Below, piece after piece: positions 6,915 through 63,545 of a stretch of DNA of 64,000 nt (its first letter is position 1; every line of letters begins with the position of its first letter). Below the pieces are notes generated by a model. It was not told the DNA's origin, made no database searches, and saw nothing but the letters and a program-made list of their open reading frames with translations. This DNA comes from an uncultured Clostridia bacterium (GTDB lineage Bacteria; Bacillota; Clostridia; Christensenellales; UBA1242). The DNA lies in the NCBI GenBank assembly GCA_934772045.1, contig CAKVMH010000001.1, forward strand, positions 234,066-298,065, in the 5' to 3' direction. Both the position numbers and the translations under genes were made by a program.

Positions 6915-7122
6915 ATTAACCCTCACTATTGTTATATTCTTAGTGTATCACAAATCAACAATTTTTGCAATATATTGATACAATTTTTGCAAATCTATTT
7001 CCAAAACAAATTGAATGTGTTAATATATGTATGTAAGTTTAAGTGTACCTTTTAAAAATGGCAATATTAACGCGATTTATTATATTAACTTTAATTTTAA
7101 AACAGCTTAATACTTTCTTTAT

Positions 7123-7147
7123 GCGGTTATGGCGGAATGGCAGACGC
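7123..7147 (+). pseudogene. 25-nt 5' fragment of tRNA-Leu(CAG) (acceptor and D arm) with duplicated leader
   Basis: 7101-7147 duplicates 7293-7339 (leader CTTAATACTTTCTTTAT plus GCGGTTATGGCGGAATGGCAGACGC), then diverges into element A. Confidence 0.8.
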
Positions 7148-7267
7148 TCGTCACAATCTGCGCTTTGGCAATTTTGCTTTTCGCAAACTTCGCTTGTTGC
7201 TTGATTGCTCCTCTATCCCTTTAAACGCACTCTGTTAGCCTTTAAAGGGAACCCTGGAAACTAGCGC
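7148..7267 (+). repeat. tRNA-linked two-hairpin element, copy A
   Basis: Starts TCGTCACAATCTG; hairpin 1 TTTTGC/GCAAA; conserved TTGCTCCT; hairpin 2 TCCCTTTAAA/TTTAAAGGGA (7216-7250). Ends with CCTGGAAACTAGCGC, which is antisense to the tRNA-Leu anticodon arm. Confidence 0.75.
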
Positions 7268-7314
7268 TAACTTTATCTTAACTTACCATTAATACAACTT
7301 AATACTTTCTTTAT

Positions 7315-7400
7315 GCGGTTATGGCGGAATGGCAGACGCGCTAGTTTCAGGTACTAGTGGGAGTTATCCCTTGCAGGTTCAAATCCTGTTAACCGCACCA
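7315..7400 (+). tRNA. tRNA-Leu(CAG), class II, CCA encoded
   Basis: Manual cloverleaf: acceptor GCGGTTA/TAACCGC, anticodon stem CTAGT/ACTAG with loop TTCAGGT, long variable arm, T-loop TTCAAAT. Confidence 0.95.
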
Positions 7401-7453
7401 AAAAAATTTTAAACAATTAAATTGTATTTCTAATTTTATAACAAATTCACTTA

Positions 7454-7478
7454 GGATTTGAACCCAAGGGTTCAATCC
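7454..7478. repeat. Palindromic pair of tRNA T-arm-like segments
   Basis: GGATTTGAACCC-AA-GGGTTCAATCC, a T-arm-like sequence facing its own inverted copy. Confidence 0.6.
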
Positions 7479-7675
7479 CTGTCGGGGCGGACCGCACGTC
7501 ATCAAGGCTCCCAAACAAGTTTTGCTTTGCAAACTTTTTGGGATAAAGGAAACACCAAGCATCAAAACGATACATTTGAAATTTATTTCAAATTGAGTAC
7601 AAAGCGCAGGTGTTGACGCGCTCCCCTCGTTACGCTAAAATCTGCTCATTGGGGCAGTTTTTTTAACGCTACTCG

Positions 7676-7691
7676 CCTGTTAACCGCACCA
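7676..7691 (+). pseudogene. 16-nt 3' fragment of tRNA-Leu (CCTGTTAACCGCACCA)
   Basis: Exact repeat of 7385-7400, followed immediately by element copy B. Confidence 0.8.
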
Positions 7692-7799
7692 ACGTCGCAA
7701 CCTGCGCTGAGTAATCGTTTTGCAGACGCAAAACTCATTTTACACTTGGTTGCTCCTTTTCCCCTACAAACCCACTTCGTTTGGCTTTGTGGGGGCTCC
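7692..7799 (+). repeat. tRNA-linked two-hairpin element, copy B
   Basis: ACGTCGCAACCTG start; hairpin 1 GTTTTGC-AGAC-GCAAAAC; TTGCTCCT; hairpin 2 CCCCTACAAA.../...TTTGTGGGGG. Confidence 0.75.
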
Positions 7800-7884
7800 A
7801 TTTTATGACAAACAATAGATAAACAATAAGATTAACTGTTACTGAAGCGAACTCAATAACTAGCGGTGGGTGCCTAAAAAGTAG

Positions 7885-7911
7885 CACAAGTTTTAGCGAC
7901 TTGTGTTTTTT
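7885..7911 (+). terminator. Rho-independent terminator (shared tRNA-locus module)
   Basis: GCACAAGTTTTAGCGACTTGTG plus T6. Nearly identical copies occur at 9672-9700 and 27025-27051. Confidence 0.75.
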
Positions 7912-9671: not shown

Positions 9672-9700
9672 AAAAAAACACAAGTCGCTAAAACTTGTGC
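9672..9700 (-). terminator. Rho-independent terminator after tRNA-Ser
   Basis: The minus strand reads GCACAAGTTTTAGCGACTTGTG plus T7. Confidence 0.75.
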
Positions 9701-9710
9701 TTTCGAGAGT

Positions 9711-9798
9711 TGGCGCAGAGAGGGGGATTTGAACCCCCGAAGGCTTTCACCTTATCGCTTTTCGAGAGCGACACGTTCGACCACTCCGACATCTCTGC
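9711..9798 (-). tRNA. tRNA-Ser(CGA), class II, CCA encoded
   Basis: Acceptor GCAGAGA/TCTCTGC, anticodon stem TCGCT/AGCGA with loop CTCGAAA, long variable arm, T-loop TTCAAAT. Confidence 0.95.
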
Positions 9799-9960
9799 AT
9801 AATGAATAACTTTGTCTTACAAATATTTTGTTTAATAAATTAAATAATGTGGGTGAACGTGTTTAAAGTCTCCTAAAAATAGAAAATTTTTGGGAATCAA
9901 GGAAAAGCCAAGTTTATGCTGAAATTTGCGTTTAGCAAATAAATTTAAACTTGTGCTTTG

Positions 9961-9984
9961 ACGCTCGACCACTTTTGTATCTGC
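9961..9984 (-). pseudogene. Degenerate 5' fragment of tRNA-Ser with duplicated leader
   Basis: The minus strand reads ATTAT-GCAGATACAAAAGTGGTCGAGCGT, versus ATTAT-GCAGAGATGTCGGAGTGGTCGAACGT in the intact gene. It is followed by a truncated copy of the GCACAAGTTT terminator arm. Confidence 0.5.
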
Positions 9985-10223
9985 ATAATAGATGATTTAG
10001 TCCTGCAAACATTCTGTTTGATTACCCCAACCTAAGCATGCGTATTTATAATAGCACAAAATATTAACAATGTCTATCTAAGAAATCGGTTTTTATGAAA
10101 ATATTGTTTTCGCACAACAAAAAAGTTATCCTCATTATTTTATCTTTTGTGGATAACTTTAAAACATTTTAATTAGCTATTTCCGCTGTTTTTCTTGTGA
10201 AAGAAAACCCTAAAACTAAGTTA

Positions 10224-20695: not shown

Positions 20696-20828
20696 AATAT
20701 TCCTCCCATTTACCTATTACTATGATAACAAAAATCAACTTGCGTGTCAAATAAATGAAAGTTAAAAAAGAATTACATTTAATTATATTATTGATTAGTA
20801 ATTATGTTTAAAAGGATTTTAAGTACAA

Positions 20829-20844
20829 TGTTCCACATGGAACA
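20829..20844. promoter_or_regulatory. parS-like site 1
   Basis: TGTTCCACATGGAACA matches the Firmicutes parS consensus TGTTNCACGTGAAACA at 14 of 16 positions. Confidence 0.7.
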
Positions 20845-20969
20845 ATTGATGTTAATAATTAAAAACCCCTACAGCTTGTAAAACAAAAAAATTATAAAAC
20901 ATTTAAATTACACATCAAAACACATAACAATGTTACTATTTTATTGATATTTTCAAATTTATTAATAAT

Positions 20970-20985
20970 TGTTCCACATGGAACA
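20970..20985. promoter_or_regulatory. parS-like site 2
   Basis: TGTTCCACATGGAACA, identical to site 1, with extended AATTG...CAATT flanks. Confidence 0.7.
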
Positions 20986-21299
20986 ATTTAGTTGGTGAGG
21001 TAAATAATACACTAATAAAGATATTTTAATATCATTGTTGATTTGTTGATATGTCTAATAAATTGTAATTTCAATTGTACAAAAATATTTATAATTTCAT
21101 TATGGTATGATTAATAGATTTAATATTAGTTGATAAAGGAATTTTATTATACAAATATTTAATTGAAGGCTAAAGATTGACTAACAAAACAATAAGAAAT
21201 AAACAATGTTATCAATGTAGTTGATTTAAATTAATTTAACATAAAAGTTTTTAAAGTACATTTAATTTTATCTGTAAATATGTTATTGATTAAAAAAAA

Positions 21300-26934: not shown

Positions 26935-27005
26935 AAAATGAGGACCCCACAAAGCCAAACGAAGCGGGTTTGAAGGGGAAACGAGAAAGACAAGAGAGAA
27001 GGCAA
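26935..27005 (-). repeat. tRNA-linked element, partial copy E (hairpin 2 half)
   Basis: The minus strand reads TTTCCCCTTCAAACCCGCTTCGTTTGGCTTTGTGGGGTCCTCATTTTAT, about 85 percent identical to the copy B hairpin 2 and its CATTTTAT tail. Confidence 0.65.
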
Positions 27006-27024: not shown

Positions 27025-27051
27025 AAAAAACACAAGTTGCTAAAACTTGTG
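27025..27051 (-). terminator. Rho-independent terminator (shared tRNA-locus module)
   Basis: The minus strand reads GCACAAGTTTTAGCAACTTGTG plus T6. Confidence 0.75.
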
Positions 27052-27056
27052 CAAAA

Positions 27057-27175
27057 CGCATCAGGGCTCCCACAAAGGCTATTAAGTGCCTTTGATGGGA
27101 ATGAGGAGCAAACGGCAAAAGGTCAGAGGTTGTTTTTACAAAAAACAACCCGACAAATATGCCAGGTTGCGACGA
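27057..27175 (-). repeat. tRNA-linked two-hairpin element, copy C (begins at the nucleotide after the tRNA CCA)
   Basis: The minus strand reads TCGTCGCAACCTGG...; hairpin 1 GGTTGTTTTT/AAAAACAACC; TTGCTCCT; hairpin 2 CCCATCAAAGGC/GCCTTTGTGGG. Confidence 0.75.
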
Positions 27176-27252
27176 TGGTGCGTCCAGAGGGATTCGAACC
27201 CCCGACCTTTGGTTCCGTAGACCAACGCTCTATCCAGCTGAGCTATGAACGC
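27176..27252 (-). tRNA. tRNA-Arg(ACG), CCA encoded
   Basis: GCGTTCATAGCTCAGCTGGATAGAGCG-TTGGT-CTACGGA-ACCAA-...TTCGAAT...GGACGCACCA. Confidence 0.95.
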
Positions 27253-27294
27253 AAGTATTAAGATAAGAATTGTTAACAGATAAACTAAGTTAAT

Positions 27295-27313
27295 GTTGGG
27301 CTACGGAACCAAC
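27295..27313. repeat. Inverted copy of the tRNA-Arg(ACG) anticodon stem-loop, 42 nt upstream of the tRNA 5' end
   Basis: The plus strand GTTGGGCTACGGAACCAAC matches the tRNA sense strand GTTGGTCTACGGAACCAAA at 17 of 19 positions, but the gene is on the minus strand. Confidence 0.8.
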
Positions 27314-27605
27314 ATGGGAACCCTGTTAAAGCCAAACAAACTTTTTGAAACTGCATTAACATTTTTTTAATGCTTTTATATGATAACATAATTAAACAAA
27401 ATTTGCAACATTTTTTAAAAAATTTATTAAAATTTGTGTTTTATGGCTAATTAAAAGCGTAATGAAACAAATTTACCTTATAACTGATATAAAATAAGTT
27501 TACTATAAAACCTGCGCATAAGTTTGAAAAGAAAAGCAAAATGCTATATAATAATGTATAGCATAAGTCAAATTGAAATATGTGAAAATAATAAAGGAGC
27601 CTACC

Positions 27606-31622: not shown

Positions 31623-31796
31623 TTACAGGAAAAGGAACATAATCAAGCTAATATATTTTGTTGTTAGGGCAAAGACATATTGTATTTACCTCTCCAGTAA
31701 ACATTTATTGTGGTTACACATGAAAAAAGGTATCAATTTGGATACCTTTTTTATTGTCATTTGACGCTTATTACATTATTTCAACTTAAAACTTTA

Positions 31797-31840
31797 AAAG
31801 CACTGCGTGCAAGACCCTTCGTCTACACTCAGGGCGACAT
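31797..31840. repeat. Solo REP-like unit (GTCRCCCTGAG family)
   Basis: The reverse complement reads ATGTCGCCCTGAGTGTAGACGAAGGGTCTTGCACGCAGTGCTTTT. Confidence 0.7.
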
Positions 31841-31884
31841 ATAGAATAAATAAAATTTAATCATCTTAGTTGTGAGATAATGAT

Positions 31885-43393: not shown

Positions 43394-43509
43394 GTCATTC
43401 TGAGCAAGCGTTGCGAAGCGAAGAATCTTGCAAGGCTTGCCTTGCTTTTAAACAAAAGGCATCAAAAGCACTTCGTGCAAGACCCTTCACATTCGTTCAG
43501 GGTGACATA
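43394..43509. repeat. Inverted pair of REP-like units (GTCAYYCTGAG family)
   Basis: Left arm GTCATTCTGAGCAAGCGTTGCGAAGCGAAGAATCTTGCAAGG. The right arm is the reverse complement of ATGTCACCCTGAACGAATGTGAAGGGTCTTGCACGAAGTGCTTTT. Degenerate units at 43351-43366, 43520-43532 and 43543-43554. Confidence 0.75.
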
Positions 43510-43632
43510 TGGTGTTGCACGCTTAAGCTGACGATTGAATATGTTCAGAGTAACTTATAAATCATGTCTACACATCAAAGGATTGTCTTAAACAATCCTT
43601 TTTTCAGAACAAATTAAGAACTGCAAAAGCAA

Positions 43633-46977: not shown

Positions 46978-47146
46978 TAAGTTATTTTGAAAATGTAAAA
47001 ACACTTGTTTAATGTAGCAAAAATTGCTAAAATGTAAACAGGTGTTTTTTAAATAATTTTAACTTGCGTATGTAAAGCGGTTAATTGTGGATATAATAAA
47101 ACACAAATTTGCAAAAGTTTTCATACTCGACCATTTATCTTAATAT

Positions 47147-47181
47147 GCGCCAGACGAAAATGGATAGCACAATGGTCTTCG
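47147..47181 (+). pseudogene. 5' fragment of tRNA-Arg(TCG) with duplicated leader
   Basis: ATCTTAATAT-GCGC...ATGGATAGCACAATGGTCTTCG is shared with the intact gene at 47310-47355. Nucleotides 5-13 are replaced by CAGACGAAA. Confidence 0.75.
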
Positions 47182-47183
47182 TT

Positions 47184-47290
47184 TCGTCACAACTCGCTAT
47201 TGAACTAGTTTGCGCGTTACACTTGCAAACTTCGCTTATTAGCGGTTGCTCCTTAACCCCTTCAAAACATTCGTTTTGAGGGGACCCCAG
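47184..47290 (+). repeat. tRNA-linked two-hairpin element, copy D
   Basis: TCGTCACAACTCG...; hairpin 1 GTTTGC/GCAAAC; TTGCTCCT; hairpin 2 CCCTTCAAAAC-attc-GTTTTGAGGGG. Confidence 0.75.
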
Positions 47291-47319
47291 AATGGTTCCT
47301 CGACTATTAATCTTAATAT

Positions 47320-47394
47320 GCGCTCATGGTGTAATGGATAGCACAATGGTCTTCGGAACCATTAGTGAGGGTTCGAATCCTTCTGGGCGCGCCA
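47320..47394 (+). tRNA. tRNA-Arg(TCG), CCA encoded
   Basis: Acceptor GCGCTCA/TGGGCGC, anticodon stem ATGGT/ACCAT with loop CTTCGGA, T-loop TTCGAAT. Confidence 0.9.
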
Positions 47395-54928: not shown

Positions 54929-55004
54929 ACAAAGGTTTACCGACTGCGGATGCACTAACATGCCCGCACAAAAGTTTACTGACTGCGGATGCACGCCCAC
55001 CCGC
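54929..55004 (-). repeat. Two tandem ~38-nt units in the tRNA-Gly leader, each starting with the first nucleotides of the tRNA
   Basis: The minus strand reads GCGGGTGGGCGTGCATCCGCAGTCAGTAAACTTTTGT / GCGGGCATGTTAGTGCATCCGCAGTCGGTAAACCTTTGT / GCGGGTGTAG... (the tRNA). Confidence 0.75.
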
Positions 55005-55134
55005 ATAATATCTTACCGACAAAATTGACTTATTTTGCAGTGTTTACATATTAACACACAAAATCGAAATTAGCAAGCATAAATGTGCAAGTTAAATGAA
55101 AAGCAAAAATTTTTACAAAATATTTAAAAAAACC

Positions 55135-55250: not shown

Positions 55251-55536
55251 CACAAAGCAACAGGTTTGTGTCATAGAAGTGGGTAATTTCCCATAAATGA
55301 GGTTTTGAAAAATAAACATAAATCGCGAAGCAACTTGTTTGCAAAACCTTTACATTTAATATTAATTAAATTAGTTTTAAATGTACCGATTAATAGGAAA
55401 CAAAGTAATGAAAAGAAACCACAAGGAAGCGGGTATCCGTTCCGTGGTGTCTTGTCATAAATGTGGGCAATTGCCCATAGATGAAGTTTGCGTAAATTTA
55501 TTTAGCAAACGATAGAGTAGGGCAAATTGCCCACAT

Positions 55537-58844: not shown

Positions 58845-58873
58845 TTGACATTATGTAATGTTTGTGATAATAT
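58845..58873 (+). promoter_or_regulatory. Promoter of the large non-coding locus
   Basis: TTGACA (58845-58850), 17-nt spacer, extended -10 TGATAATAT. Confidence 0.6.
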
Positions 58874-58879
58874 AATAAC

Positions 58880-59527
58880 ATAACGAAGGCGCAGTATTCT
58901 AGTCGTCTAGGTTAAGTGAGGATGCTGAAACAAGCATAATTGGCACAACTATGAAGTTTCTGGTGCTGGCTTTGATTGCCCAAATTGGGGCTGGTGCTGG
59001 GAGTTAAGGTTTTTGGGTGGTGTGTAACGGCATACACATTTAAGCCCAACTATCGCGGAGACCCAAGTGGGTAGGTTGAGTGTTATTAGCTGCTTATCTA
59101 TCGCTTGGATTGGGAACCTGCATACGGCGAAAGTTGTGTGCAGTGTAGCCTGCTTTGAGTGGTTAAACTGGGATTGAGCGACAACTTAAATTTATTGCAA
59201 AGTACACGCATACTTTTAGGTTGCTTTTGAAATTTTAACCGCAAAATAAAGCTAAATTTAACTGATGACGTTAAGGAAAACTTCTAGGCTGTTCGTATGA
59301 GGTGCTTTGGGGATTATAGTGTGGTCTCAGTGGCGATTCGGTGCAAGTTTTGCATAAAGGGAAACCGCTTTGTTGGTAACGGCAAAGTGCAAGATTGGGA
59401 AATCCAACCGAACCTTATGCCGCAAGGTTTACTCAAGGTATTGCCTTCGTAATTTGGAAACAACACTTTTAAGTGTGTAAATAAACATAAAAAGAAAAAA
59501 GCAGGTAAGTTTTCACCTGTTTTTTTC
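58880..59527 (+). ncRNA. Candidate large structured RNA (~650 nt), class unassigned (size range of ROOL/OLE-type RNAs)
   Basis: About 1 kb with no credible ORF, visibly G+C-richer than its flanks, bounded by a consensus promoter and the terminator CAGGT-aagttttc-ACCTG plus T8. Many local hairpins, e.g. an 11-bp GAAA-capped stem at 59118-59143 and AACCTT-atgccgc-AAGGTT at 59411-59429. Possible closing helix ACGAAGGC (58883-58890) with GCCTTCGT (59443-59450). Confidence 0.6.
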
Positions 59528-63059: not shown

Positions 63060-63545
63060 ATTAATTGGTCACTCTGAGTGTTGGCAATTACACTCTATAT
63101 GATATGTACACCATGAACGTTAGTGAATATGTCGTACTAAGTGTGTCGCCCTGTTAAGTTTGTCACCCTTTTATGTATGTCACCCTGAGCGCACGCGAAG
63201 GGTCTTGCACGAAGCGCTTTTTACGATCAATATATCAAAAGCAAAACAAGTTTTGCAAGATTCTTCGCTTCGCTAGAATCTGAAGATTTTTTCGAAATCA
63301 TTCAGGTTCTTCGCTATGCTAGAATGACAGATAACTGAAAATATACATAAACATAAATAACATTATTTTTTTAAAATCATTCAGGTTCTTCGCTACGCTC
63401 AGAATGACACGTGTATTCAATCTTATGTCATTCTGTTAAGTATGTACTATGTAAGTATGTCACCCTGAGTGGAACGAAGGGTCTTGCGCGAAGCGTTTTT
63501 TACCATTAATGTTTTAATCAACGCTACGCTCAGAATGACAGATGT
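63060..63545. repeat. Cluster of at least 8 REP-like units (GTCAYYCTGAG / GAAGGGTCTTGCRCGAAGCG / CATTCAGGTTCTTCGCTAYGCT(C)AGAATGACA)
   Basis: Units at about 63069, 63131, 63146, 63162, 63179-63218, 63255-63285, 63297-63330, 63376-63409, 63427, 63459-63497 and 63520-63541, in both orientations. Confidence 0.75.

What the first reader, a model, noticed from the sequence alone, without database searches (positions are those of the whole stretch)
27207..27337. Second case: inverted anticodon stem-loop copy upstream of tRNA-Arg(ACG)
The plus strand at 27295-27313 reads GTTGGGCTACGGAACCAAC. This matches the sense sequence of the anticodon arm of the minus-strand tRNA (GTTGGTCTACGGAACCAAA) at 17 of 19 positions, and the loop CTACGGA is in the inverted orientation. 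On the tRNA transcript it would sit 42 nt upstream of the 5' end. It is preceded by GGCTTTAACAGGGTTCCC, which resembles the 3' half of element hairpin 2 plus the RACCC linker seen in copy A. The architecture and spacing are the same as at tRNA-Leu, but the segment is tailored to a different tRNA, which argues against coincidence.
Basis: seen in the sequence. Interest (0 to 1): 0.75.

Follow-up and report, generated by a model that had tools for sequence, protein, structure and literature searches.

The report
tRNA-targeting structured repeat leaves inverted footprint
The inverted anticodon-arm copy upstream of tRNA-Arg is real and is the leftover tail of an undescribed, protein-less, structured ~105-nt repeat that inserts into tRNA and 5S rRNA genes of gut Clostridia, rebuilds the gene beside itself and leaves an inverted copy of the insertion site.

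Summary
Plus strand 27295-27313 matches the sense anticodon arm of minus-strand tRNA-Arg(ACG) at 17/19 positions (16/17 for the arm proper; best of 200 shuffles 12/17) and lies 42 nt upstream.

It is the tail of a 5'-truncated copy of a ~105-nt structured repeat: head CGTCGCAAC, stem-loop 1, TTGCTCCT linker, stem-loop 2, RNCCC tail. The window holds four full copies. More than 118 loci occur in gut Clostridia/Christensenellaceae MAGs, none in viral contigs, none in Rfam, and none with a conserved neighbouring ORF.

About 15 copies lie inside a tRNA or 5S gene. They share one layout: partial gene copy ending at junction j, then the scaffold, then an inverted gene copy starting 5-14 nt beyond j, then the intact gene.

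Twenty further copies abut mature tRNA ends within 0-4 nt: 11 follow the CCA end and 9 abut the 5' end on the opposite strand. None of these carries an inverted copy.

I read the Arg segment as an insertion footprint, not a regulator. The mechanism is only inferred; my preferred model is reverse transcription primed from RNA or DNA 3' ends. Undescribed and interesting, but this locus is a decayed relic.

The parts
27295..27313 (-). Inverted (antisense on the tRNA strand) copy of tRNA-Arg(ACG) nt 26-44, the whole anticodon arm. This is the finding itself.
   Evidence: 17/19 identity; 16/17 against a shuffle maximum of 12.
27314..27333 (-). Head-truncated remnant of the repeat: 3' half of stem-loop 2 (GGCTTTAACAGGG), tail TTCCC and a 2-3 nt linker.
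   Evidence: aligns with the stem-loop 2 3' half and tail of the full copies; no stem-loop 1, head or partial tRNA copy upstream.
27253..27294 (-). 42-nt spacer between the inverted copy and the tRNA. It carries the ATCTTAATAC motif that is also found directly upstream of tRNA-Leu and tRNA-Arg(TCG).
27176..27252 (-). Intact tRNA-Arg(ACG), the target gene.
27056..27175 (-). Full scaffold copy whose head starts 1 nt after the CCA end of tRNA-Arg (CACCA-T-CGTCGCAAC...GGGAGCCCT). It is conserved at the orthologous site in a species whose neighbouring protein is 74% identical.
   Evidence: (E = 6e-17).
27030..27052 (-). Terminator hairpin GCACAAGTTTTAGCAACTTGTGT plus T-run that closes the tRNA-Arg-scaffold unit. 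The same hairpin occurs at 7884 and 9678.
26938..27000 (-). Second, partial scaffold (linker plus stem-loop 2 plus tail). It is absent from the related species L206.
   Evidence: I1; weak.
7097..7147 (+). Partial copy of the tRNA-Leu(CAG) gene (upstream 26 nt plus tRNA nt 1-25) that ends at the head of the repeat.
   Evidence: D10 (96% identity to 7289-7339).
7148..7256 (+). Full scaffold copy, a sense-type insertion in tRNA-Leu.
7253..7267 (+). Inverted copy of tRNA-Leu nt 24-37 (CCTGGAAACTAGCGC; 14/15 with one extra G).
7315..7400 (+). Intact tRNA-Leu(CAG).
7450..7640 (-). Diverged reverse-oriented scaffold. Its first helix reads AACACC/GGTGTT, a compensatory change. Its tail region carries GGGTTCAAATCCT, an inverted copy of the tRNA-Leu T arm.
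   Evidence: sequence read; 7505-7550, E = 7e-4.
7677..7692 (+). 16-nt fragment of the tRNA-Leu 3' end (CCTGTTAACCGCACCA). It abuts both the reverse copy's side and the head of the next forward copy.
7692..7800 (+). Full scaffold copy downstream of tRNA-Leu.
47127..47183 (+). Partial copy of the tRNA-Arg(TCG) gene (20 nt upstream plus nt 1-36) that ends at the head of the repeat.
47184..47289 (+). Full scaffold copy, a sense-type insertion in tRNA-Arg(TCG).
47291..47299 (+). Inverted copy of tRNA-Arg(TCG) nt 36-44 (AATGGTTCC). It extends weakly to nt 23-45 and is followed directly by the duplicated upstream region.
47320..47394 (+). Intact tRNA-Arg(TCG).
9850..10022 (-). Degenerate scaffold plus a partial 5' copy of tRNA-Ser(CGA), upstream of that tRNA (9711-9798).
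   Evidence: D13.

Best explanation
SHOWN. The segment is the target-derived tail of a head-truncated copy of a ~105-nt non-coding repeat with conserved structure. The order is: head CGTCGCAAC, stem-loop 1, linker TTGCTCCT, stem-loop 2, tail RNCCC. The repeat has multiplied in gut Clostridia (Christensenellaceae and relatives) and is strongly associated with tRNA genes.

When the head is joined inside a tRNA or 5S gene at position j, the layout is always the same. Reading in element orientation: a partial gene copy ending at j, the scaffold, an inverted gene copy that starts 5-14 nt (mostly 7-9) beyond j and runs back across j, and then a complete regenerated gene. The Arg(ACG) segment is that inverted copy, and j is inferred to lie in the anticodon loop. 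It is a decaying footprint (17/19), not a dedicated regulator of tRNA-Arg.

INFERRED, about 0.3-0.35 on its own. The insertions are RNA-templated. In this model the reverse-strand scaffold RNA ends in ...GUUGCGACG-3'. In 9 loci RNase P would generate that end, because the scaffold lies directly upstream of a tRNA. A reverse transcriptase that starts at the template's 3' terminus copies it, using any available 3'-OH as primer: tRNA CCA ends, tRNA fragments or cDNAs, or nicked DNA. It then switches templates at RNA ends. The resulting chimeras re-enter the chromosome at the cognate gene by homology. Only events that rebuild the essential gene survive, and these are the ones with the partial duplicate and the inverted copy.

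The alternative that the inverted piece is a pre-existing targeting guide is treated as a rival below.
For: Repeat family and structure. Four full copies in the window plus partials. At least 118 loci in genome contigs, nearly all gut Clostridia/Christensenellaceae MAGs, with up to 10 or more near-identical copies in one genome. Two helices covary: 85% of cells paired against 73% in shuffles, 210 double-change cells against 80, 0/500 shuffles as high, and 36-52% paired when the partner is slid. Individual folds agree.

tRNA association. 33 of 126 copies lie within 100 nt of a tRNA.

Junction rule. Seen for Leu(CAG), Arg(TCG), Arg(ACG), Leu(AAG), Leu(TAA/CAA), Thr(GGT), 5S rRNA and a non-RNA target, in both orientations. 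In the permutation test, an inverted match of score >=11 occurs in 13% of copies against 1.6% of permuted pairs.

Head at RNA termini. 11 copies start 0-3 nt after the CCA end and 9 copies start 0-4 nt (mostly 1) from the tRNA 5' end on the opposite strand. 21/113 heads follow CCA (+0-1 nt) against 2.2% background.

Not a constant guide. 0/20 end-abutting copies carry an inverted copy of their flank.

Strand hint. The reverse strand folds more stably in 107/116 copies. Forward-strand A.C mismatches, which would be G.U on the reverse strand, outnumber forward G.U pairs 73 to 26.

Mobility. The element is present at some orthologous sites and absent at others, and tandem units occur (L006, L061, L120).

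Persistence. The tRNA-Arg-scaffold-terminator unit is conserved, with changes in the stems, in a species whose neighbouring protein is 74% identical.

No partner or known family. No protein partner within 3.5 kb, no viral copies, no Rfam family.
Against: No reverse transcriptase was found. A motif screen of about 1 Mb of flanking DNA gave none. That sample is not whole genomes, so the screen is weak in both directions.

The strand evidence is mixed. One helix position is mostly U.G on the forward strand. The forward orientation is co-directional with upstream genes 58:26 and is clearly inside the tRNA-Arg transcription unit. Terminator counts do not separate the strands.

I could not derive one simple reaction path that yields the 5-14 nt offset of the inverted copy.

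No short target-site duplication was found in ordinary copies.

Whether the inverted copy shares variants with the partial copy or with the intact gene is inconsistent: with the partial copy in L013 and L061, with the intact gene in L063.

The 10-nt core TTGGTCTACG is identical in three species while its surroundings diverged. That could mean selection on the segment rather than a passive footprint.

If the promoter-like site at 27408-27380 is the one used, the segment lies in the tRNA-Arg leader and could pair with the anticodon arm.
Confidence: 0.5

Rival explanations
1. Guide-first, RNA- or DNA-guided integration. The segment after the scaffold is a programmable targeting guide, as in TnpB/IscB omega-RNAs, IS110 bridge/seek RNAs or the homing crRNAs of CRISPR-associated transposons. 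It pairs with the target gene and directs a protein encoded elsewhere to insert the element next to the paired region.
For: The layout is a scaffold followed by a 9-19 nt variable segment complementary to the neighbouring gene, at a roughly fixed offset from the junction. In tRNA-Arg(TCG) the segment is the last thing before the duplicated flank. Window Leu and L056 Leu differ at one position in both tRNA and segment (GCGCTAGTTTC against GCGCTAGATTC). The core is conserved across L034, L050 and L123.
Against: 0/20 copies at tRNA ends, and about 80% of all copies, carry no complementary segment. The segment is often the start of a long, decayed inverted gene copy that runs into the terminator palindrome (L061, L063, L123, L085), which is not the shape of a discrete guide. 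There is no nuclease, recombinase or transposase neighbour, no omega-RNA or other Rfam hit, and the guide is contiguous rather than split across an internal loop as in bridge RNAs.
Confidence: 0.17
2. Miniature, non-autonomous integrative element. A tyrosine integrase supplied in trans mobilises it. Its attachment site contains part of the tRNA gene, so integration duplicates that part and regenerates the tRNA, as islands and prophages do.
For: Direct repeats of a gene segment flank the insert and the intact gene is restored. The spacer carries its own promoter or terminator (L123, L048). Junctions fall in the anticodon loop, the T loop or the 3' CCA end, which from my recollection of Williams 2002 (NAR), not verified here, are the classic integrase sublocations. 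Tandem accretion occurs (L006, L061, L120). In strain variant L003 an unrelated DNA segment is joined inside the same anticodon arm.
Against: No integrase was found near any of 126 copies, and there are no viral copies. The same scaffold supplies either the 5' or the 3' gene part, in either orientation. The model does not explain the 9 heads at exact tRNA 5' ends, the CCA preference at non-tRNA sites or the inverted copy with its 5-14 nt offset.
Confidence: 0.12
3. DNA-level repair by-product. The element inserts by an unknown DNA transposition step. A staggered break in an essential gene is then rescued by fold-back or hairpin priming and template switching at the gene's own stem-loops and terminator palindrome. 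This creates the inverted copy and the duplication.
For: In convergent cases the inverted copy is continuous with the terminator hairpin, giving one long palindrome centred on the terminator loop (L061, L063, L014, L123). The inverted copy begins near the far base of the stem whose loop holds the junction. In L013 and L061 the inverted copy shares a variant with the partial copy, as the two strands of one broken arm would. The inverted copy occurs only where the gene had to be rescued.
Against: The model does not explain heads at exact mature tRNA 5' and 3' ends. Sense-type cases show no palindrome centre. There are no short target-site duplications and no transposase.
Confidence: 0.15
4. Cis-regulatory leader. 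The antisense segment is transcribed in the tRNA-Arg precursor and pairs with the anticodon arm to delay or control folding and processing.
For: A promoter-like site at 27408-27380 (-) would place the segment in the leader. The predicted fold pairs it with the anticodon arm over 17 bp.
Against: The fold is not more stable than shuffles (z = -1.4). The same kind of segment occurs downstream, beyond terminators, on the other side of genes, and for a non-RNA target. The segments are decaying (17/19 here; an indel in Leu; 9 nt in Arg-TCG). There is no Rfam leader family.
Confidence: 0.05
5. Chance match, helped by the self-complementarity of any stem.
For: Stem halves match in either orientation, so only the 7-nt loop reports direction.
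Against: 16/17 against a shuffle maximum of 12. The loop is 7/7. The segment lies next to a recognisable scaffold tail. The same rule recurs at 15 other loci.
Confidence: 0.01

Closest known systems
Integrative islands and prophages at tRNA genes (tyrosine integrases; anticodon-loop, T-loop and 3'-end sublocations; from my recollection of Williams 2002, not checked here)
   Same: The targets are tRNA genes. The junctions lie in the same sublocations. A gene segment is duplicated as a direct repeat and the gene is regenerated, with promoter or terminator supplied by the insert.
   Different: The insert is only 115-300 bp and has no integrase. It supplies either gene half in either orientation. 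It carries an inverted copy of the junction. Heads also lie at exact tRNA 5' ends.
Chimeric retrocopies made by reverse-transcriptase template switching (mammalian U6/5S/tRNA-L1 chimeras) and the tRNA-primed, CCA-recognising reverse transcriptase of the Neurospora Mauriceville retroplasmid (own knowledge)
   Same: One sharp element end is fused to the exact termini of abundant small RNAs (tRNA, 5S). There are 0-1 extra nucleotides at the joint, a preference for CCA 3' ends, and no coding capacity in the copied RNA.
   Different: This is a bacterial chromosome, no reverse transcriptase has been identified, and there is no poly-A or short target-site duplication. The copies sit at the cognate gene rather than at random sites.
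Guide-RNA-bearing mobile elements: IS200/IS605 omega-RNA (TnpB/IscB), IS110/IS1111 bridge and seek RNAs (Durrant et al. 2024, PMC11208160), type V-K CAST homing crRNAs
   Same: A structured scaffold lies next to a short segment complementary to a nearby target, often a tRNA gene in the case of CAST homing.
   Different: There is no associated nuclease, recombinase or transposase and no Rfam match. The segment is contiguous, often extends into a long inverted gene copy, and is missing from most copies.
Bacterial structured intergenic repeats and MITEs (REP/BIME, ERIC, BOX, RUP, Correia elements)
   Same: They are about 100 nt, have many copies, are intergenic, form hairpins, are co-transcribed with neighbouring genes and encode no protein.
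   Different: Single copies have no terminal inverted repeats, although some tail-to-tail pairs exist. No short target duplication was found. The insertions are precise, at or inside RNA genes, and regenerate the target.

Membership tests
Tyrosine-integrase integrative element at a tRNA gene | Direct repeat of a tRNA segment at both ends, with a regenerated tRNA | tested here: met
Tyrosine-integrase integrative element at a tRNA gene | Integrase gene inside or next to the element | tested here: not met
   No conserved ORF within 3.5 kb of 126 copies; inserts are 115-300 bp.
Tyrosine-integrase integrative element at a tRNA gene | Fixed orientation, with the element carrying one defined gene part (usually the 3' part) | tested here: not met
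   Both orientations occur and both 5' and 3' parts are supplied.
IS110/IS1111 bridge RNA or seekRNA | DEDD recombinase gene adjacent to the non-coding RNA | tested here: not met
IS110/IS1111 bridge RNA or seekRNA | Two internal loops, each with split guides for target and donor | tested here: not met
   The folds show one large internal loop in stem-loop 1 only. The complementary segment is contiguous and lies 3' of stem-loop 2.
OMEGA systems (TnpB/IscB omega-RNA) | Omega-RNA scaffold overlapping or adjacent to a tnpB or iscB gene at the transposon end | tested here: not met
   No such ORF; no Rfam hit at E <= 10.
OMEGA systems (TnpB/IscB omega-RNA) | The guide is the flank immediately outside the element end, in the same orientation | tested here: not met
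   The segment is an inverted copy of a site 40-190 nt away.
MITE | Terminal inverted repeats | tested here: inconclusive
   Single copies have none. One subfamily forms tail-to-tail pairs with outward-facing CGTCGCAAC ends (L012, L017, L051, L088).
MITE | Short target-site duplication of fixed length | tested here: not met
   Suffix-repeat test equals the permutation control. Duplications in RNA genes are 16-100 nt and variable.
Group I or group II intron in a tRNA gene | Intron core recognisable, and the gene interrupted and restored by splicing | tested here: not met
   No Rfam intron hit. The intact gene lies beside the insert rather than being split by it.
RT-generated chimeric retrocopy (works-like comparison) | Junctions at exact termini of cellular RNAs, with 0 to a few extra nucleotides | tested here: met
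RT-generated chimeric retrocopy (works-like comparison) | A reverse transcriptase encoded in the same genomes | not testable with these tools
   The motif screen of about 1 Mb of flanks was negative.
T-box or other tRNA-sensing leader | Curated covariance model match, with specifier and antiterminator architecture | tested here: not met

The most novel reading that the evidence does not exclude
The scaffold is a bacterial, protein-less retroelement analogous to a SINE. Its RNA has an end trimmed by tRNA processing. A host or intron reverse transcriptase copies it from any 3'-OH, preferably tRNA CCA ends, and switches templates at RNA termini, writing tRNA-scaffold chimeras back into tRNA and 5S genes. 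Equally unexcluded is that the tail is a programmable guide for a partner protein that has not been recognised. Either reading would be a new class of RNA-dependent genome editing in gut Firmicutes.
Probability: 0.3. Interest if true: 0.9.

Novelty: new variant of a known kind. Interest (0 to 1): 0.68.

Why it matters
tRNA genes are the classic landing sites of mobile DNA, yet every well-understood case relies on an element-encoded integrase or on a CRISPR/Tn7 machine. This element has no protein, a conserved covarying RNA-like fold, and a reproducible junction rule. It regenerates the gene it hits, and one of its ends is joined to the exact processed termini of tRNAs, positions that are defined at the RNA level rather than in the DNA.

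If the RNA-templated reading is right, it would be evidence for SINE-like retro-insertion in bacteria. If the guide reading is right, it would point to a compact programmable targeting RNA.

There are also practical consequences. The family explains the partial tRNA copies, odd palindromes and assembly breaks around tRNA genes in Christensenellaceae-type MAGs, a health-associated gut lineage. It also adds at least one unannotated structured RNA family to that lineage.

Tried and rejected
1. Rfam. The whole window at gathering threshold and the tRNA loci at E <= 10 returned only tRNAs and OLE. Six loci with the larger RNA returned nothing.

2. Protein partner. All-against-all clustering of 617 ORFs within 3.5 kb of the copies found only housekeeping genes at inconsistent positions.

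3. Viral contigs scan: zero hits.

4. Metagenome scan with the neighbouring FTHFS protein, to obtain orthologous tRNA-Arg loci. The best hit was 67% identical and none carried the tRNA-Arg arrangement, so the scan was wasted.

5. Strain variation through exact-protein look-ups. The tRNA-Arg(TCG) locus is invariant. The Arg(ACG) locus gave L003 (a foreign junction inside the anticodon arm) and L002 (a scaffolding gap), but no empty site. Of the homologues of the 849-aa neighbour, only L206 kept synteny.

6. Primer-binding-site idea, in which the tail binds the tRNA as in copia-type retroelements. Rejected because in convergent cases the tail is sense to the tRNA.

7. Short target-site duplication: not found.

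8. Terminator counts to decide the transcribed strand: 28 against 22, uninformative.

9. Three-way variant comparison of partial copy, intact gene and inverted copy: inconsistent.

10. Reverse-transcriptase motif screen of the flanks: negative, and weak as a test.

11. Literature searches by topic and by sequence motif: nothing relevant.

12. Single reaction schemes (hairpin-capped break, target-primed synthesis from the tail, rolling circle). None reproduced all the features, so none is asserted.
Full report
1. THE OBSERVATION

The window is AT-rich (about 34% GC) and carries an OLE RNA and seven tRNA genes, so it comes from a Firmicute. Exact-protein look-ups place it in human-gut metagenome assemblies, with no cultured source.

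tRNA-Arg(ACG) lies at 27176-27252 on the minus strand. On the plus strand, 27295-27313 reads GTTGGGCTACGGAACCAAC. The sense anticodon arm reads GTTGGTCTACGGAACCAAA. That is 17/19 identical, with the loop 7/7, so on the tRNA strand the segment is antisense. It ends 42 nt upstream of the gene.

For the 17-nt arm the inverted match is 16/17. The best of 200 shuffles of the flank is 12/17, and none of 74 other tRNAs in related loci exceeds 12/17. The segment is identical in independent assemblies of the species.

2. WHAT IT BELONGS TO

On the tRNA strand, GGCTTTAACAGGGTTCCC lies directly 5' of the segment. This aligns with the 3' half of the second hairpin plus the tail of a repeat that has four full copies in the window:
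- 7148-7256 (+)
- 7692-7800 (+)
- 27175-27062 (-)
- 47184-47289 (+)

There are also partial or degenerate copies at about 7640-7505 (-), 26980-26942 (-) and upstream of tRNA-Ser.

The unit is built as follows:
- a 5' CGTC
- stem-loop 1, closed by GCAAC/GTTGC, then a variable covarying stem, a large internal loop and a distal hairpin
- a linker, TCCTnnnn
- stem-loop 2, closed by CCC(C)/GGG(G)
- a tail, (A/G)NCCC(T)

On 81 copies, the two helices I could align column by column show:
- 85% standard pairs against 73% in shuffles
- 210 double-change cells against 80 (0/500 shuffles reach this)
- 36-52% pairing when the partner is slid

The fold is therefore conserved through compensatory change.

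No Rfam family matches. Nearly all are gut or rumen Clostridia/Christensenellaceae MAGs, plus Christensenella intestinihominis, and one MAG holds 10 or more near-identical copies. There are no copies in 2.9 million viral contigs. No protein family recurs within 3.5 kb of the copies.

3. THE RULE BEHIND THE INVERTED SEGMENT

I call the CGTC end the head. In about 15 copies the head is joined inside an RNA gene at a position j. Reading in the element's orientation, the order is always:
- a partial gene copy ending at j (16-100 nt, often including the gene's promoter or terminator side)
- the scaffold
- a few nt of linker
- an inverted copy of the gene that begins 5-14 nt (mostly 7-9) beyond j and runs back across j
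- a spacer of 0-190 nt
- the complete gene

Sense-type cases (element in the same direction as the gene):
- window tRNA-Leu(CAG), j after nt 25
- window tRNA-Arg(TCG), j after nt 36
- L006 Arg(ACG)
- L056 Leu(CAG)

Convergent cases (element opposite to the gene):
- L013 Leu(AAG)
- L014, L061 and L063 Leu(TAA/CAA)
- L034, L050 and L123 Arg(ACG)
- L082 and L085 Thr(GGT)
- L048 5S rRNA

L120 is a non-RNA target.

In a permutation test, the 50 nt after the scaffold match the reverse complement of the next 345 nt at score >=11 in 13% of copies, against 1.6% of permuted pairs.

In convergent cases the inverted copy originally spanned the whole partial copy and merges with the gene's terminator hairpin into one long palindrome. 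The middle of that palindrome has since decayed.

The window's tRNA-Leu is bracketed by a sense-type copy upstream and a diverged reverse copy downstream. Each has its own partial gene fragment and its own inverted segment.

The Arg(ACG) segment fits this rule as the inverted copy of nt 26-44, which puts the inferred j in the anticodon loop. The head, stem-loop 1 and partial tRNA copy of that element have been lost.

4. TWO FURTHER FACTS THAT CONSTRAIN THE MECHANISM

First, the head sits at processed tRNA termini. Twenty copies have the head 0-4 nt from an ARAGORN-defined tRNA end. Eleven follow the CCA end on the same strand, with spacers of none, T, G, CGG or CCT. Nine abut nucleotide 1 on the opposite strand, mostly with one extra nucleotide. 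Overall, 21/113 heads follow CCA (+0-1 nt) against 2.2% background. This count includes tRNA 3' fragments and some non-tRNA sites. The 5' boundary of a mature tRNA is defined at the RNA level, by RNase P cleavage, and I know of no DNA-level mark for it.

Second, none of these 20 end-abutting copies has an inverted copy of its flank, and about 80% of all copies have none. The inverted segment is therefore not a constant module of the element. It accompanies insertions that would otherwise have destroyed an essential gene.

5. PERSISTENCE AND TRANSCRIPTION

The unit tRNA-Arg(ACG)-scaffold-terminator is conserved at the orthologous site in a species whose neighbouring protein is 74% identical. 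Stem-loop 2 has changed in sequence there, while the second partial scaffold is absent. Copies are thus both long-lived and gained or lost.

In this unit the forward strand must be transcribed with the tRNA. In nine other loci the reverse strand lies directly upstream of a tRNA. In L019 three reverse copies fill the spacer between tRNA-Met and tRNA-Glu.

The evidence on which strand folds is mixed:
- the reverse strand is more stable in 107/116 copies
- A.C mismatches on the forward strand, which would be G.U on the reverse strand, outnumber forward G.U pairs 73:26
- one helix position is mostly U.G on the forward strand
- the forward strand is co-directional with upstream genes 58:26

I leave the strand unresolved.

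6. BEST EXPLANATION AND RIVALS

Shown: the segment is the target-derived tail of a truncated member of a tRNA-associated, structured, protein-less repeat family. It follows a junction rule seen at many independent loci.

Inferred, about one chance in three on its own: the insertions are RNA-templated. In this model a reverse transcriptase begins at the 3' terminus of the reverse-strand scaffold RNA. RNase P would produce that terminus where the scaffold precedes a tRNA. The enzyme uses tRNA CCA ends, other RNA or cDNA ends, or nicked DNA as primers, and it switches templates at RNA ends. The chimeras recombine with the cognate gene, and only gene-restoring outcomes survive inside essential genes.

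This model accounts for four things: the sharp head, the exact RNA termini with 0-1 extra nucleotides, the CCA preference, and the choice of abundant small RNAs as partners. It does not yet give a simple derivation of the 5-14 nt offset, and no reverse transcriptase has been found (a weak test).

The rivals are:
- a pre-existing guide that directs a partner protein encoded elsewhere. For: the offset geometry, the Leu/L056 co-variation and the conserved 10-nt core in three species. Against: its absence from most copies and the lack of any partner.
- a miniature integrase-dependent element. For: the direct repeats, the self-supplied promoters and terminators, the classic sublocations, and L003, where foreign DNA is joined inside this same anticodon arm. 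Against: no integrase, both orientations, and heads at tRNA 5' ends.
- fold-back or template-switch repair after a DNA break. For: the terminator-centred palindromes. Against: the RNA-terminus junctions.
- a cis-acting leader. The predicted 17-bp pairing with the anticodon arm is possible if the promoter-like site at 27408-27380 is used. Against: the same kind of segment occurs in positions where it cannot act on the tRNA transcript.

7. COMPARISON WITH KNOWN SYSTEMS AND NOVELTY

The element resembles several known kinds of system in part:
- tRNA-targeting integrative elements, in regenerating the gene
- reverse-transcriptase template-switch chimeras and the CCA-primed Mauriceville system, in its junctions
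- guide-RNA elements, in having a scaffold followed by a complementary segment
- bacterial structured repeats, in size and copy number

It fails at least one defining feature of each family that I could test (see the membership table). I found no description of it in Rfam or in the searchable literature.

I rate it a new variant of a known kind: small non-coding mobile repeats and tRNA-targeting insertions. There is a substantial chance that the mechanism is new. The particular locus in the finding is a decayed relic. The interest lies in the family and its rule.

8. LIMITS

- I have no empty site, no whole genome, no expression data and no partner protein.
- Junction positions rest on ARAGORN ends and on local alignments.
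- The roughly 15 intragenic cases include orthologous sets (L034, L050 and L123; L082 and L085; window Leu and L056), so the number of independent events is smaller than the number of loci.

Noticed in passing
L012:6995-7255, L017:4724-5009(-), L020:3199-3473, L051:274-567, L088:178-468: A conserved structured RNA candidate of about 270 nt in which the scaffold is an internal domain. The 5' CGTC pairs with a downstream GACG, the linker UCCUUUUCCCC pairs with GGGGAGAGGA, and a long-range closing helix forms (ACGAACAAACU with AGUUUGUCCGU). 16 of 71 predicted pairs show compensatory change. In L020 it lies after a whiA-like gene. It has no Rfam match.
   Followed up: partly
L003:12980-13100 (strain variant of window 27200-27340): In one metagenome, identity to the window stops inside the tRNA-Arg(ACG) anticodon stem/loop. 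Unrelated DNA encoding an Ig-domain (He_PIG) protein follows, and the loop reads CTACGAA instead of CTACGGA. The foreign side carries CACGAACCCCCGAATT, whose reverse complement shares 11 consecutive nt (TCGGGGGTTCG) with the tRNA's T arm. The L206 contig (the related species) also ends in this arm.
   Followed up: partly
window 58870-59463 (+): A full-length OLE (ornate large extremophilic) RNA, 341 bits.
   Followed up: no
window 31779-31846, 43447-43510, 63171-63221, 63475-63517: A second, unrelated repeat family (AAAAGCACTNCGTGCAAGACCCTTC...CAGGGYGACATAT), 77-89% identical and present in both orientations.
   Followed up: no
window 54929-55010 (upstream of tRNA-Gly(CCC), - strand): The first 7-8 nt of tRNA-Gly (TGCGGGT) recur twice more upstream, each followed by a unit of about 39 nt (...GTGCATCCGCAGTCRGTAAACYTTTG). 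This is another small insert with a duplicated 5' tRNA stub.
   Followed up: no
window 55270-55535: The spacer between tRNA-Met and tRNA-Glu is filled with GGGCAATTGCCC-type hairpins. In the related MAG L019 the same spacer holds three tandem reverse-oriented scaffold copies.
   Followed up: partly
window 20821-20864 and 20950-20993: Two palindromes, TTGTTCCACATGGAACAA, lie between the parB and parA genes. They are parS-like centromere sites.
   Followed up: no
L008, L009, L022, L025, L040, L046, L047, L049, L060, L076 (MAG RGIG1755): Here the scaffold is part of modular arrays. A 36-nt repeat (TTGCAACTAACGTCTTAAATTTTAATCCGTTATTTG) alternates with the scaffold and with a second ~85-nt module that also begins CGTCG and ends GAGCCTTG. 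Short 31-nt tandem repeats follow some copies.
   Followed up: partly
window 7884-7906 (+), 9678-9700 (-), 27030-27052 (-): The same terminator hairpin, GCACAAGTTTTAGCGACTTGTGT, closes three different tRNA units. At tRNA-Ser it is preceded by ACTCTCGAAAG, which repeats that tRNA's anticodon loop in sense orientation.
   Followed up: no
L012, L017, L051, L088: Tail-to-tail inverted pairs of scaffolds with outward-facing CGTCGCAAC ends, resembling a MITE with long terminal inverted repeats. These belong to the large-RNA subfamily described above.
   Followed up: partly
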